NCBI GenBank assembly: GCA_951406725.2
Contig: OX597840.1
Span: forward strand, 16,430,001 to 16,494,000
DNA: 64,000 nt
Source of the DNA: Octopus vulgaris
Taxonomy: Eukaryota
Reading direction: 5' to 3'
Made by a program: the position numbers. Position 1 is the stretch's first letter. Each line of letters opens with the position of its first letter. Positions 1 to 63,000 of this stretch are shown one piece after another.

Positions 1-3000
1 TCACCCACCACCTTCCACAATCACCATCACTACCACCAGAGCCATCACTTCAGCCACTACCACCACCACCAGCAACATCATCCCCACTGCCTCCACCAAT
101 ACAAACACCACCACTATCACTACCATCAGCCCCATCACCACCACCACCACCATCATTTTGATGGCAACAAATTTCTGTATCTAACGTTTTCCGCCCCCAT
201 CACAAATTTCTCATTGAAGGTCCCAAGGTCCTTCCTGACACAAATAAACTCGTAGAAATCTTCAGGAGACAAGAATTTAAACCTGACCCCATGGGAACAA
301 GTCTACTATTCGCTTTCATGGCTCAACATTTTACTCACCAGTTTTTCAAGACTGACCTAACCAAAAATCCCGACATGCAATGGGGCAATCAAGGCGTAAG
401 TACATTATCCATCTAACCATCTGTCTGTCTATCTATCTATCTGTCTGTCTGTCTGTCTGTCTGTCTGTCTGTCTGTCTGTCTATCCATCAGTCTGTCTGT
501 CTGTCTATCTATCCATCTATCTATTTGTCTATCTGCCTGTCCGTCTGTCTGTGTGGCTGTCTGACTCTCCCTCCCCCTCTCTCTCTCTCTCTAATATATA
601 TATATATAAATATATTTTTATTTTTTATTCTTTTATTCTTTTACTTGTTTCAGTCATTTGACTGTGGCCATGCTGGAGCACCGCATTTAGTCGAGCAAAT
701 CTGACCCCAGGACTTATTCTTTGCAAGCTTAGTACTTATTCCATAGGTCTCTTTTGCTAAACTGCTAAGTTAGGGGTGATGTAAACACACCAGCATCAGT
801 TGTCAAGTGATGTTAGGGGGACAAACACAGACACACACACACACACAAACACTTATATATGACAGACTTCTTTCAGTTTCTGTCTACCAAATCCACTCAC
901 AAGGTTTTGGTCAGCTCGAGGTTATAGAAGGCACTTGCCCAAGGTGCCATGGAGCGGGACTGAACCCGGAACCATGTGGTTGGTAAGCAAGCTACTTACC
1001 ACTCACACGCACACACATCAACCAAAACTGTCCGATGAACGGATACGTTAAACTCTGAGTAACAGTATTTGTGATGTCTCTGCAGCTTTATTAAAAAAGT
1101 ATATAAATATATACATACATATATATATATATATATATATATACACACTCATGTGAGGTGGGGTGTTGAAAAGTTCCCGGCTTTAAGAGCATGGTGAAGT
1201 GACTGGTTGGAGGCCCAACCTTCTGAGTTCTTTTACAGGGTCTTAGAAAAACTGAAGGACTACTGCAATAAGTGTGTGAGTTTGAGAGAGGAATATATTG
1301 AATAAAATCATAATTAACTGATCCTCCCACACAAAGCCTCTTACTCAAAGCCAAGAACTCTTCAGTATCCCCTCTTATATGTATGTATGTATATAGAATA
1401 TATATATATCTATCTATCTATCTATTTAAATATATATATACACACACACACATACATATATACTTATATATATATATATATATATATATATATATATAGT
1501 TAATCCAAACATGAACAAAGAGAAAACACAACAATGCGAGGACTTGGAACAAGTATAGTGTTATTGGACGCTCAGGAAAGGAAAGAAAGAAGGAGGATTT
1601 CACATTTTGAGCGGAGCTCTTCATCAAAAATGTAGAAAAGAAGAAGAAAAAGTCCAAGGAAGGGAAGATGGAGAAAGAAAATCGTCAACGATACACACGT
1701 GGTCGTATATACATGCTGAGACCCCCTTTGGTCATGAATGACCATGGGATTGCACCTAGAAAGTTCCCCTCCAAGGCACAAGTCTGGGCAAGGTTGTTTA
1801 TGGAAGACCAGCAGTCACCCATGCATACCAGCCTCCCCTCTCCACACCAAAGGAAAGGCAAAGGGGCCAATACAGCTTGGCGACTGTGACGTCGCAACTA
1901 ATTTCTACAGCTGAGTTAAGTGGAGCAATGTGAAGTAAAGTGTCTTGCTCAAGAACACAACACACAGCCTGGTCCAGGATTCAAACTCACAACCTCATGA
2001 TCATAAGCTTGACGCTCTAACCACTGAGCCATGTGCCTTCACACACACACACACACATACACACACACACAAATACACACACACACAAACACAGACACAG
2101 ACAGACAGACACACACACACACACACACACATATATAGCTGTTTAAGAATCTAAGAATCCATAAATTAGAAAAATTATACACTCATATATTTGTTAATAG
2201 AGTGAGTATAGTAATCCCAGTGTACAGTTTTATATATCCGTTACCGCCAACCTTATCAATTGGTTTCGCATTAGGGGTTCCATGAGGTGTTAGATAGTGG
2301 CCCGATTATTTCACCTTGTGCACTTCTTGTTTTCTTCCATAATTGCCCTCTCTGAAAAGTGCAAATTTGCATAAACTTGTTGTTAGCTAACACCCTGTTG
2401 AACCCCTAGTGCAAAACCAATTGATAAAATCAGTTCACACTGGTTATATAATACCGTTTCAGTGGGTTGATTAGTATGTCTCAGGCCCAGGTATAGTTAC
2501 AATTTCTTGGTTCTCATGTGTCAGCTATAAGCAGTGGAAAGAAATACAAGAAAATGTGTTGCTATTAATTTGTACAGCAACAGGTTGGTCACATCATGAT
2601 GATACCGTCTGGAGATAAATGTTCATATTGTTTTACAAATCAGTTTGAAATTAGTGATGTGTGCAGGGCAGACAGGAACTGAAGTACCTGGCATCCCTTC
2701 TTGAAGTCTCTCATCCTCTCTGCTTACATTAAAGCTACTTGCAAATAACTCTCCTCTCTCCTTGAAGATTCCCACCTCATTGGAGAAAATAGGAGACATC
2801 ATTCTATTTAAAGATGATTTGGGGCTCCAGTGTGCAAACATATTTTGCTGCGCTTGGTTGGCCCATACTAGGGCCACTTCGACCATCTTGGACCCCTGTC
2901 ACCCAGTTTTCATTAAATTTATTAGAGAGTATTAACTCCCATTCATAGAAATAGCAGCCAAGATATTCCCATCTTTAAAAGAGAGAAGGACACAATGGAT

Positions 3001-60000: not shown

Positions 60001-63000
60001 CAAGAGGTGATTGATGCTTGTGTCTCCTTTCCTGTAGATTCTGCATTTTATGTTGGAGTTCTGTCGATTTTTGCCTTTATCAGATTTGTTCTAATGGCTT
60101 GTTCCTGAGCAGCTATAGTTAGCATTTCTGTCCCTCATTTCACATTCTTGTCTGTCTTTTTACATCCTTGTTTTGTTGCATGAATTGGCCATGTAATTAT
60201 CTTTCTGTCTGCATACTGTATGTCCTGCAACCAGCAGGCACATTTGTCCTATCCCAGGCAAAACCAAAATCATCCATGTCCCCACTGTAACTTCCTAGCA
60301 AAATCCATAACTGGATTCATGTTATGTTCATGCATCTATCATAAATAGCTGCAGCTTCTTTTGCACTTTTATTTTTAAAGTTGTTTTTTCTTTGTCTCAT
60401 TTTTTTCCTTTTAAATCCTCTCCTTCAAACACTCATAAATGAAATCGATGGGAGTGACCATTATTATTATCATTATTATTATTATTATTGTGGAGCTATG
60501 TCAAATAGCTGCTGTCATGTGTGAGATGGATCCATCAGTCGGCTGAGTCTGTAGTGATGAATGCACTGCTGTCCTCCTTCGATTGGGCAGGCAAGGCAGT
60601 TTTCCTTTGTCTGGAGGTTGTTTGGTGGACAAAGCTGAAAGGCATGAGGACAGATCCATTCCTCTTTGGTAGAGCTCTCATTGACTTCTTCAAGTTTCAC
60701 TTGAAAAGGAAATTGTGAGTGGAGAGGGAAGTGCTGTCCTCGAGTGAGTTTGTTGAAAGGTGAGTGAAAGTTGCGAAAATGTCAAGAGTGGATGGTACCT
60801 CTCTAAGTGTTGGTCTGTGAGTCGGGGAGAAGGAATTGGAGAGGGTACTTGCTCTTGGAGTTTTAGGGAAATCTTGGACAGTGAGGTTTCTTGATTATCC
60901 TTAGAGGCCTTCCTGTATCAGGAGGATCACATCTCTATCATCCTCGCTGCCACTTTTTCTTTTATTTTAACCTTTGTATGCTATGCATTTGTCCCTTCTT
61001 TTTCAAAGTATACTGTTTATACTTACTTTTTTTTCTTTTTTTTATCGTTTCATTACATGTAAACCCTTACACTTTATGTCTGTCATTGTATTGTCTCTCT
61101 CATCCTTCACCCTTGCAGCAAATAAATGAAATCATTATTATTATTATTATTATTGTTATTATTGTTTTACTTCTCAGAGTGCTCGGTTTTGTTGGCTCTG
61201 CTGACAGAGGCCCCACAGGGTATCTTTCTACACATTATAATCTTTGATAACTAGATGTTAATTATTGTGGAAGACATTCAACACCCAAGTACCAGTCTCA
61301 AAATCCTAGCTGTCCCCAGCAGAGCAGTTTTTTTAGGCTTGCTCTGCTCTCACGTTCCACTTGAAAAGGAAAATAAGGGAAGAGAGAGAAGTGTCGTCTT
61401 TTAGCCAGTTTGCTGAGAGGTGGATGAAAGTGGTGAGATTGGTGCGAGTGAACAGGCTTGCCCTGAGCATACGCCTGTAGTTGGAAAAAGGAACAGAAAA
61501 AAAGGCACCTGCCCCAAAAGTCCATGGTTTTTTATGGGGTTTTCCCATGAGCATCCCTTGAACATCTCCTCCCTATTCAGGATTACACATTGTTGATTTC
61601 TTTCTTTTCAATTTTGTCAGTCTTGTTTACATGCAAACCCCTCACAACACATACTCACACACACGCATGCATTCTTTATTTTGTTCTGTACAGTCCATAA
61701 TATTTTTCTTAATGTAAACCCTTGTGGTTAATAAAGAAATTATCATCATCATTATTATTATTATTATTATTATTATTATTATTATTATTATTATCATTAT
61801 TATTATTATTATTATTATTATTATTATTATAATTATCATTATCATTATTATTATTATCGTCATCATCATCATTATTATTCAGTAGTATTATTTTTATAAC
61901 ATGCTTTCACTGCACTACTGAGTGCAGCTCTGTGTGCCTTGGGTTTATTGTGCTGTGGTTTGTTGTGATGTTCTTATTGTTATTGTATTGAAAGTGTTTT
62001 ACGTAGGATGTGTGCAATGCCTAGTAGTGCTATTTTCTGTATGTTATATATATTTGTTAGTCCTGGTGTTTTTGTTATGTATTTTTCTGAATATTTTTTT
62101 ATCATACCTAATGAGCCCTTTATGACAGGAATTTCTCTTTTTAGACTCCACATTCGAGTTACCTCTATTTCCAGGCCTTTGTATTTTAAAATTATTATTA
62201 TTATTTTTTTTTTCTAGCTAACACAGCTTGCTGTTCATTCCCATGCCAGAACAATGGGATATGTTCACCCACTGGGCGAAATGGTTATATTTGCAATTGC
62301 CAGAACAGTGGTTACTATGGCACCAATTGTGAATACGGTAAGTACACATGACTCGGACAAGAATTGACTCTGTATCCATTTCTATTGTTGATAAAAATAT
62401 TGTCCATTGTGATCCACCAGGCCTTTATACCCAATCAAACATATTCTCTCTGTGACCATTCATCTTCTTGCATTTCAAGGACTGCAGTGTCCAATGAAAT
62501 CTTTGTATTTTTTATTTAAGGACAGCAGAGTATGATTTGAGGGAGGTTTGACTACCATTTCTGGAAGGTCAAGTGACCTTGCAGTGGCTCTTCCATGATG
62601 AGTGCTTGATAATGTCAGTAATATAGCCAAGTGGTTATAGTACCTGACTGCAGTTCAAAAGATCTTAGGTTCAAATCAACTGCAGACATCTTGGGGAGAA
62701 TATTGCCTGAGTTCAACAAATTGTTCACTGGAACTGGAGCCAGATCTGATAAGGATTTTTACCAAAGATTGTGGTGCTTTATCTACAAGAACATTTGTCT
62801 AATGAATTCTCAGGTATATATAAGTTCTGAGCTTATAAGGGCCTGTCAGAAAGGAACAATGGCGGCGAGCTGGCAGAAATGCTTAGCGGTATTTCGTCTG
62901 TCGTTACGTTGTGAGTTCAAATTCCGCCAAGGTTGACTTTGCCTTTCATCCTTTCAGGGTCAATAAATTAAGTACCAGTTATGCACTGGGGTCGATATAA

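What the first reader, a model, noticed from the sequence alone, without database searches (positions are those of the whole stretch)
220..62337. Two cyclooxygenase genes in tandem in an apparent cephalopod genome
Seen: the 3' six exons of one COX end at 37465, and a new signal-peptide exon plus a COX-type EGF exon begin at 58487 and 62218 on the same strand. Known: vertebrate COX-1 and COX-2 are unlinked, and invertebrate duplicates arose independently. Inference: a lineage-specific tandem COX duplication, possibly with divided roles in prostanoid signalling. The 3997, 18594 and 62218 exons do not appear in the ORF track.
Basis: partly seen in the sequence, partly recalled or inferred. Interest (0 to 1): 0.8.

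Follow-up and report, generated by a model that had tools for sequence, protein, structure and literature searches.

The report
Two neighbouring cyclooxygenase genes, second one partial
The window holds most of an intact prostaglandin-making cyclooxygenase gene and, 21 kb further on the same strand, what looks like the start of a second one; this is an ordinary local gene duplication and cannot be proven from this window.

Summary
Six + strand exons (220-395, 3997-4080, 5458-5704, 9781-10067, 18594-18738, 37026-37465) have canonical GT-AG borders and matching phases. Searched exon by exon, each matches only cyclooxygenases (COX-1/COX-2) among solved structures. They are collinear and gap-free from about residue 153 to the C-terminus, with haem and active-site motifs intact and a stop at 37463-37465.

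After 21,021 bases of retroelement fragments and simple repeats come an ATG exon with a hydrophobic core (58487-58568) and a 120-nt EGF exon (62218-62337). The EGF exon's best single-stretch match is the N-terminal EGF module of human COX-2: gap-free, all seven cysteines aligned, including the CC doublet.

A head-to-tail COX pair is the best reading (about 0.6). It is unproven for these reasons:
- The second gene's membrane-binding and catalytic exons lie beyond base 64000.
- The signal-peptide exon is not the only candidate.
- A 2.1-kb palindrome inside a 3.7-kb TA array lies between the genes.
- No tool here could test the cephalopod origin.

Lineage-specific invertebrate COX duplications are already in print. 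Interest is low to moderate.

The parts
220..395 (+). Gene 1, first exon in the window (176 nt). Carries the distal haem-side motif QHFTHQ. Enters with 2 bases of a split codon, so the gene continues upstream of base 1.
   Evidence: Borders; translation. PDB: 35 of 35 hits are COX-1/2, best human COX-2 5ikq at 1.6e-14, chain 137-187. No Pfam hit for the exon alone.
3997..4080 (+). Gene 1 exon of 84 nt (28 codons), phase 0 to 0.
   Evidence: Pfam An_peroxidase 9.4e-06. PDB: 35 of 35 hits are COX-1/2, E 0.0044, full-length mouse COX-2 numbering (1pxx) 214-241. Shrimp LvCOX also has an 84-nt exon.
5458..5704 (+). Gene 1 exon of 247 nt with the WLREHNR helix; ends with 1 base of a split codon.
   Evidence: Pfam An_peroxidase 1.7e-16. 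PDB: 41 hits, 35 of them COX-1/2, best 1.5e-29; 1pxx 242-323. The other 6 are alpha-dioxygenases, peroxinectin and dual oxidase, at 5.6e-07 or weaker.
9781..10067 (+). Gene 1 exon of 287 nt with EEYVSHL and LYHWHP (channel Tyr, catalytic Tyr and proximal haem His).
   Evidence: PDB: 35 of 35 hits COX-1/2, best mouse COX-2 3mdl at 4.1e-34; 1pxx 325-418. No Pfam hit for the exon alone.
18594..18738 (+). Gene 1 exon of 145 nt; ends with 1 base of a split codon.
   Evidence: PDB: 35 of 35 hits COX-1/2, best ovine COX-1 1ebv at 7.8e-10; 1pxx 429-468. No Pfam hit.
37026..37465 (+). Gene 1 last exon (440 nt with the TGA stop). Has GAPFS (the aspirin-site Ser), a long acidic/polar tail and the C-terminal SNEL.
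   Evidence: Pfam An_peroxidase 2.8e-04. PDB: 35 of 35 hits COX-1/2, best human COX-1 6y3c at 8.3e-36. AATAAA at 37476, 38827, 40337 and 40368.
37466..58486 (.). 21,021-base spacer between the genes. It holds reverse-transcriptase fragments, a SINE-like repeat family, TA/ATAT arrays and a 2.1-kb palindrome. No other host gene was recognised.
   Evidence: (RVT_1 at 48129-48923 +, 50805-51848 - and 51815-52549 -; PHD at 48839-49372 +).
58487..58568 (+). Candidate first coding exon of gene 2: ATG, 27 codons plus 1 base. It has a hydrophobic core that includes six Met from an (ATG)6 run, and a consensus donor AAG|GTGAGT. Probably a signal peptide.
   Evidence: No PDB or Pfam match. Not unique: other ATG-to-phase-1-donor candidates exist at 58333, 60439, 60557, 60978, 61126-61219 and 62008.
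62218..62337 (+). Gene 2 EGF exon (120 nt, phase 1 to 1) of the COX type: seven Cys including the CC doublet.
   Evidence: Pfam EGF 6.7e-05. PDB: best single stretch is human COX-2 5f19, 32.4 bits, E 7e-07, query 3-38 against chain 3-38 without gaps. 22 of the 27 hits at E up to 1e-05 are COX-2. Shrimp LvCOX has a 120-nt exon.

Best explanation
The window covers the junction of two head-to-tail cyclooxygenase (prostaglandin G/H synthase) genes.

Gene 1. It is seen from about residue 153 to its stop. It encodes a normal haem-dependent COX that would oxygenate arachidonate to PGG2 at the tyrosyl-radical site and reduce it to PGH2 at the peroxidase site.
- Shown: collinear homology, intact frames and intact motifs.
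- Inferred: enzyme activity.

Gene 2. It begins 21 kb downstream with a signal-peptide exon and a COX-type EGF exon. The rest of it should lie beyond base 64000.
- Shown: the EGF exon and its COX-like cysteine pattern.
- Inferred: that catalytic exons follow.

Origin. The pair most likely arose by local tandem duplication in this invertebrate lineage. This is inferred.
For: Gene 1.
- Six exons have GT-AG borders and compatible phases.
- Searched exon by exon, each matches COX-1/2 only or best.
- In full-length mouse COX-2 numbering (chain 1pxx) the matches cover 155-206, 214-241, 242-323, 325-418, 429-468 and 472-569. They are in order, and the exon ends abut.
- Motifs QHFTHQ, LYHWHP, EEYVSHL and GAPFS are present.
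- The C-terminus SNEL is followed by TGA.

Gene 2.
- The EGF exon aligns gap-free with the first 36 residues of mature human COX-2. All seven Cys align and 18 of 36 positions are identical by my count from the printed alignment.
- It is the best single-stretch match, at 32.4 bits. The best neurexin stretch scores 26.1 and the best Notch stretch 15.1.
- It directly follows an ATG exon with a hydrophobic core in the right phase.
- Its 120-nt size equals that of an exon of the shrimp COX gene.

Context.
- Both units are on the same strand.
- The window has no N.
- Each of the 8 exons matches only itself in the window; the next-best E is 0.029 or worse.
- None of 158 repeat pairs of 120 bp or more touches an exon.
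Against: - Only two short exons of gene 2 are in the window. No membrane-binding or catalytic exon lies in 62338-64000.
- By whole-sequence E-value the EGF exon ranks Notch1 (1.3e-07) and neurexin (2.3e-07) above COX-2 (7e-07). Pfam calls it only a generic EGF.
- The margin for COX rests on about 6 bits and on the cysteine spacing.
- The signal-peptide exon is one of several candidates. My crude filter passed 501 of 865 ATG-to-donor stretches, mostly repeat junk.
- The two genes share no overlapping part in the window, so they cannot be compared as paralogues.
- The link between them runs through a 3.7-kb TA array and a 2.1-kb palindrome. An assembler could err there.
Confidence: 0.6

Rival explanations
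1. There is one COX gene, mis-ordered or falsely duplicated by the assembly. The exons at 58487 and 62218 are the true 5' end of the gene whose 3' end is at 220-37465, or a haplotype copy of it placed alongside.
For: The two pieces are exactly complementary: a 5' end without a 3' end, and a 3' end without a 5' end. Between them lie a (TA)n array at 52638-56371 and a near-perfect 2.1-kb palindrome at 52177-54297 (1989 matches in 2141 alignment columns; arms 98% complementary). These structures are prone to mis-joins and fold-back artefacts.
Against: The window has no N. The palindrome ends abruptly: 140 mismatches in the 200 bases walked outward. The flanks are therefore not mirror images, as a fold-back join would make them. 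Gene 1's first exon in the window enters in phase 1 with a proper acceptor, so an upstream exon is expected there. There is no positive sign of a join.
Confidence: 0.13
2. Partial duplication: only the promoter-proximal part (signal peptide plus EGF exon) of a COX gene was copied downstream of the parent. It is a relic or a short non-enzymatic transcript.
For: Only these two exons are seen. Nothing COX-like lies in the 1.66 kb that follows.
Against: Both exons keep open frames, consensus splice sites and all seven Cys. Introns in gene 1 run to 18 kb, so 1.66 kb of empty intron means nothing.
Confidence: 0.1
3. The EGF exon belongs to an unrelated secreted EGF-domain gene (Notch/Delta or neurexin-like, or a small EGF protein) that happens to lie next to a COX gene.
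For: Notch1 and neurexin rank first by whole-sequence E-value. Pfam sees only EGF. A C2H2-like ORF with no Pfam hit lies 0.9 kb downstream at 63239-63634.
Against: The Notch score is a sum over five repeats of 15.1 bits or less each. Both Notch and neurexin need gaps and lack the CC doublet, whereas COX-2 aligns gap-free at 32.4 bits at the very N-terminus of the mature chain. Here the exon likewise follows a signal-peptide-like exon. A chance neighbour of this type beside a COX gene is unlikely.
Confidence: 0.12

Closest known systems
Vertebrate COX-2 (PTGS2; human 5f19/5ikq, mouse 1pxx/3mdl/4ph9)
   Same: It is the best match for three of the six gene 1 exons (220, 5458, 9781) and for the EGF exon. 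At 3997 COX-2 and COX-1 are tied (E 0.0044 against 0.005). Domain order and motifs are the same. Exon ends fall at 241/242 and 323-325 of the mouse chain. Exon sizes 84, 247 and 287 nt equal those I recall for human PTGS2; this is recalled, not checked here.
   Different: Only roughly 50-60% identical by my count from the printed alignments. The channel position that separates the vertebrate isoforms carries Ile here, as in COX-1 (numbering recalled). The C-terminus is SNEL. Introns are much longer, up to 18.3 kb.
Vertebrate COX-1 (PTGS1; ovine 1ebv/1diy, human 6y3c)
   Same: It is the best match for the exons at 18594 and 37026. The catalytic motifs are the same.
   Different: Gene 1 is neither a COX-1 nor a COX-2 orthologue: different exons prefer different isoforms. 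Vertebrate COX-1 and COX-2 lie on different chromosomes (established knowledge). Here the two units are 21 kb apart.
Lineage-specific COX duplicates of invertebrates (corals, crustaceans, annelids, molluscs: Jarving et al. 2004 JBC; Havird et al. 2015 J Mol Evol)
   Same: Both are independent, lineage-restricted duplications of a single ancestral COX.
   Different: I saw those papers as titles in reference lists only; neither is held. What I know of their content is recalled. None of the searches turned up a printed report of linked (tandem) COX genes in a cephalopod.
Shrimp LvCOX gene (PMC8835781, Figure 2 legend, passages read)
   Same: It has a 120-nt exon and an 84-nt exon, like the EGF exon and the exon at 3997. 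All its introns are GT-AG.
   Different: The shrimp gene is single-copy and compact: 7.3 kb with 13 exons. Two of the exons seen here are split in shrimp (141+115 and 176+112 nt).

Membership tests
Cyclooxygenase / prostaglandin G/H synthase (gene 1) | Animal haem peroxidase catalytic domain, collinear with known COX | tested here: met
   Pfam An_peroxidase on 3 of 6 exons. PDB: all six exons match COX-1/2, in order and abutting.
Cyclooxygenase / prostaglandin G/H synthase (gene 1) | Distal Gln/His and proximal His haem ligands, and the catalytic Tyr | tested here: met
   QHFTHQ is identical to human COX-2 in the alignment. LYHWHP is identical. Residue numbering is recalled.
Cyclooxygenase / prostaglandin G/H synthase (gene 1) | Fatty-acid channel residues (Tyr at the constriction; Ser at the aspirin site in GAPFS) | tested here: met
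   EEYVSHL aligns with the COX-2 segment. GAPFS aligns.
Cyclooxygenase / prostaglandin G/H synthase (gene 1) | N-terminal signal peptide, EGF module, membrane-binding helices and the channel-mouth Arg | not testable with these tools
   These parts lie upstream of base 1. The exon at 220 enters in phase 1.
Cyclooxygenase / prostaglandin G/H synthase (gene 1) | C-terminal ER-retention-like tetrapeptide ending in EL | tested here: met
   SNEL comes directly before TGA. The vertebrate counterparts are recalled.
Cyclooxygenase / prostaglandin G/H synthase (gene 2) | EGF module with seven Cys, including the extra Cys of the CC doublet, at the N-terminus of the mature protein | tested here: met
   Gap-free alignment with human COX-2 chain positions 3-38, with all Cys aligned. 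That the extra Cys bonds to the catalytic domain is recalled.
Cyclooxygenase / prostaglandin G/H synthase (gene 2) | Signal peptide | tested here: inconclusive
   The exon 58487-58568 has a hydrophobic core and the right phase, but it is not the only candidate. No signal-peptide predictor was at hand.
Cyclooxygenase / prostaglandin G/H synthase (gene 2) | Membrane-binding domain and haem peroxidase catalytic domain | not testable with these tools
   Not in 62338-64000. They would lie beyond the window.
Tandem gene duplicate | Two complete paralogues, adjacent and on the same strand, in a correct assembly | tested here: inconclusive
   Same strand, 21,021 bases apart and no N. Neither gene is complete in the window, and they share no overlapping part to compare.
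Cephalopod genome | Taxonomic assignment of the DNA | not testable with these tools
   The protein and contig collections that could show it are closed or hold only prokaryotes, phages, plasmids and E. coli. GC of about 0.19-0.46 and abundant TA arrays are compatible but not diagnostic.

The most novel reading that the evidence does not exclude
The two units are a complete, still-linked COX pair that arose in this mollusc lineage and has split into a constitutive and an inducible isoform. That would be an independent replay of the vertebrate COX-1/COX-2 division of labour, caught while the copies are still neighbours and may share regulatory DNA.
Probability: 0.1. Interest if true: 0.5.

Novelty: new member of a known kind. 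Interest (0 to 1): 0.25.

Why it matters
If both genes are complete, the animal has two COX enzymes from a local duplication. That bears on how prostanoid signalling and NSAID sensitivity are read in this group. One paper I read in passages aligned a single COX per cephalopod species when arguing for NSAID targets (PMC9953149). Independent COX duplications are a small but recurring theme in invertebrates. A linked pair would allow a clean test of subfunctionalisation. It would not change what is known about the enzyme itself.

Tried and rejected
Searches that gave little or nothing:
- Pfam on single exons found nothing for 3 of the 6 gene 1 exons or for the signal-peptide exon, because the fragments are short. 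The PDB searches settled these exons.
- The signal-peptide exon has no PDB match, as expected.
- My crude scan for alternative first exons passed 501 of 865 stretches, mostly TA/TG repeat junk. It does not single out 58487, beyond that exon having the best donor.
- Self tblastn exon by exon found no further COX exon.
- Rfam and the tRNA scan found nothing.
- The protein atlas gave only a weak C2H2 lead for the ORF at 63239-63634. Its recognition value was 2067, below the 2300 mark.

Literature:
- The seven searches answered gave no paper on linked COX genes in cephalopods.
- Havird 2015 and Jarving 2004 are not held.
- Gene numbers per species in PMC8835781 are in a figure that is not held. 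Supplements are closed. Either could give the COX copy number of Octopus bimaculoides.

Steps not taken:
So there is no full-length score, fold or tree.
- Genome contigs and search_dna_similar were not used. Their collections hold only prokaryotes, phages, plasmids and E. coli.
- Structure prediction, fold search and complex prediction were not used. They would not tell EGF types apart.
Relatives, taxonomy and copy number stayed unchecked.
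Full report
**What the window is.** The window has 64,000 bases and no N. GC per 2-kb window runs from 0.185 to 0.46. I do not take it for human. The coding exons are only roughly 50-60% identical to human COX proteins in the printed alignments. The non-coding DNA is full of TA arrays and an unfamiliar 400-bp repeat family.

**Checking the observation.** A scan of all + strand stop-to-stop frames for short COX and EGF patterns picked out six frames between 162 and 37462, and one at 62190-62348. I read the borders directly.

Gene 1 has these exons:
- 220-395 (176 nt)
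- 3997-4080 (84 nt)
- 5458-5704 (247 nt)
- 9781-10067 (287 nt)
- 18594-18738 (145 nt)
- 37026-37465 (440 nt, ending in TGA)

Each intron starts with GT and ends with AG. The phases fit: the exon at 220 enters with two bases of a codon, and the pairs 5704/9781 and 18738/37026 each share a codon as 1+2 bases. The introns measure 3,601, 1,377, 4,076, 8,526 and 18,287 bases.

Gene 2 has an ATG at 58487. Its exon ends at 58568 with the consensus donor AAG|GTGAGT, leaving one base. The exon 62218-62337 supplies the other two bases and ends in phase 1 before GTAAGT.

This is explained by their frames being only 50, 49 and 53 codons long.

**How the exons were searched.** All searches were made exon by exon. 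I left out the step of joining the exons into a spliced model. There is therefore no full-length domain score, no fold and no gene tree in this report.

**Gene 1 results.**
- Pfam finds An_peroxidase on the exons at 3997 (9.4e-06), 5458 (1.7e-16) and 37026 (2.8e-04). It finds nothing on the other three, which are short pieces.
- Against solved structures, every exon hits cyclooxygenases. For the exons at 220, 3997, 9781, 18594 and 37026, 35 of 35 hits are COX-1/2.
- For the exon at 5458, 35 of 41 hits are COX-1/2. The other six are alpha-dioxygenases, a peroxinectin and dual oxidases, at 5.6e-07 or weaker.
- In the numbering of a full-length mouse COX-2 chain (1pxx), the matches cover 155-206, 214-241, 242-323, 325-418, 429-468 and 472-569. 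The exons are collinear and abut, and together they run from about residue 153 to the end.
- The motifs for the distal haem side (QHFTHQ), the catalytic Tyr and proximal His (LYHWHP), the channel Tyr (EEYVSHL) and the aspirin-site Ser (GAPFS) are all present. What each motif does is established knowledge of the family; residue numbers are recalled.
- The protein ends in SNEL.
- Some exons score better with COX-2 and others with COX-1, so gene 1 is an orthologue of neither.

Gene 1 is an intact COX gene as far as it can be seen.

**Gene 2 results.**
- The EGF exon gets Pfam EGF at 6.7e-05.
- By whole-sequence E-value the PDB list starts with Notch1 (1.3e-07) and neurexin-1 (2.3e-07), ahead of human COX-2 (7e-07). 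This counts against a simple COX call and I report it as such.
- The printed alignments show that the Notch score is a sum of five repeats of at most 15.1 bits. The best neurexin stretch is 26.1 bits with a gap.
- COX-2 gives the best single stretch: 32.4 bits, query 3-38 against chain 3-38 without gaps. All seven Cys align, including the CC doublet, and 18 of 36 positions are identical by my count.
- 22 of the 27 hits at E up to 1e-05 are COX-2.
- The match lies at the very start of the mature enzyme. In the window the exon likewise follows an ATG exon with a hydrophobic core.
- The exon is 120 nt long. The shrimp COX gene also has a 120-nt and an 84-nt exon (Figure 2 legend of PMC8835781, passages read).

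I conclude that this is a COX-type EGF exon, with moderate rather than full certainty.

**Weak points.**
- The first exon is weaker evidence. It has no database match. Six of its residues come from an (ATG)6 run. A crude scan finds other ATG-to-phase-1-donor stretches with hydrophobic cores outside the repeat arrays, for example 61126-61219.
- Nothing COX-like lies in 62338-64000. Each of the eight exons matches only itself in the window, with a next-best E of 0.029 or worse. The two genes therefore have no part in common that could be compared.

**Between the genes.** The 21,021 bases from 37466 to 58486 hold the following:
- Reverse-transcriptase fragments at 48129-48923 (+), 50805-51848 (-) and 51815-52549 (-), and a PHD-like finger at 48839-49372. 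Of the 10 ORFs sent in that call, 4 had hits and 6 had none.
- Copies of a 400-bp dispersed repeat.
- TA arrays, the largest at 52638-56371.
- A palindrome at 52177-54297. Its arms are 98% complementary and the whole aligns to its own reverse complement at 1989 of 2141 columns. It ends abruptly on both sides.

I found no other host gene. The palindrome and the TA array are where an assembly error would most plausibly sit. I have no positive evidence of one.

**Interpretation.**
- Best reading, about 0.6: two head-to-tail COX genes from a local duplication. Gene 1 is a working enzyme, and gene 2 is seen only at its start.
- Rival, about 0.13: a single gene mis-ordered or falsely duplicated by the assembly.
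- Rival, about 0.10: a partial 5' duplicate.
- Rival, about 0.12: an unrelated EGF gene.

**Claims that stay untested.** The cephalopod origin could not be tested. The protein and contig collections that could show it were closed or do not hold animals. One paper (PMC9953149, passages read) says that five NSAID-contact positions vary among cephalopod COX sequences. Gene 1 differs from the vertebrate COX-2 residue at four of them by my reading. That is compatible but not diagnostic. Divided roles for the two copies remain pure inference.

**Novelty.** Independent, lineage-specific COX duplications in invertebrates are in print. The titles of Jarving 2004 and Havird 2015 say so; I saw them only in reference lists, and the papers are not held. 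My seven searches found no report of linked COX genes in a cephalopod. Gene-number figures and supplements that might hold this were not visible to me. This is a new member of a known kind, of low to moderate interest.

Noticed in passing
window 52177-54297: A near-perfect 2.1-kb palindrome. Its arms, 52177-52868 and 53606-54297, are 98% complementary, and the whole matches its own reverse complement at 1989 of 2141 columns. It is made of the 5' part of a reverse-transcriptase ORF in both orientations around a TA-rich centre, and it sits inside a 3.7-kb TA array. It is either a real inverted duplication or a fold-back assembly artefact.
   Followed up: partly
window 24482-27967: A 1.75-kb unit repeated twice in tandem at 97% identity, with internal 268-bp sub-repeats, inside the 18.3-kb last intron of gene 1. 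The region has a strong negative GC skew.
   Followed up: partly
window about 600-1005, 11015-11432, 16896-17333, 17693-18079, 31947-32243, 34506-34929, 38275-38715, 39736-40123, 47189-47407: A dispersed 400-bp repeat family, SINE-like, in both orientations at 75-89% identity. It is found in introns and in the intergenic spacer. No tRNA or Rfam match was found in the window.
   Followed up: partly
window 63239-63634 (+): A 132-codon open frame with three Cys..Cys...His...His-like spacings, 0.9 kb downstream of the EGF exon. It has no Pfam hit. The atlas gives only a weak C2H2 zinc-finger lead, below the recognition mark. It is probably a transposon remnant in intron 2 of gene 2.
   Followed up: partly
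window 9781-10067 (gene 1 exon): In the printed alignment, the vertebrate N-x-S sequon in the segment before the LLEHG-like helix is not kept in gene 1. An N-G-T sequon lies about 13 residues earlier instead. N-glycosylation is said to be needed for COX activity in vertebrates and corals (abstract of PMC8062024).
   Followed up: no
window 19486-19970: A GGT-rich minisatellite of about 0.5 kb (periods 9-18, about 66% matches) that gives long open frames on both strands. It lies just downstream of the exon at 18594.
   Followed up: no
window 58468-58486: An AG preceded by a pyrimidine/T-rich stretch lies 18 bases upstream of the gene 2 ATG, and the frame stays open upstream to 58376. The ATG exon may therefore be preceded by an untranslated exon rather than being the first exon of the transcript.
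   Followed up: no
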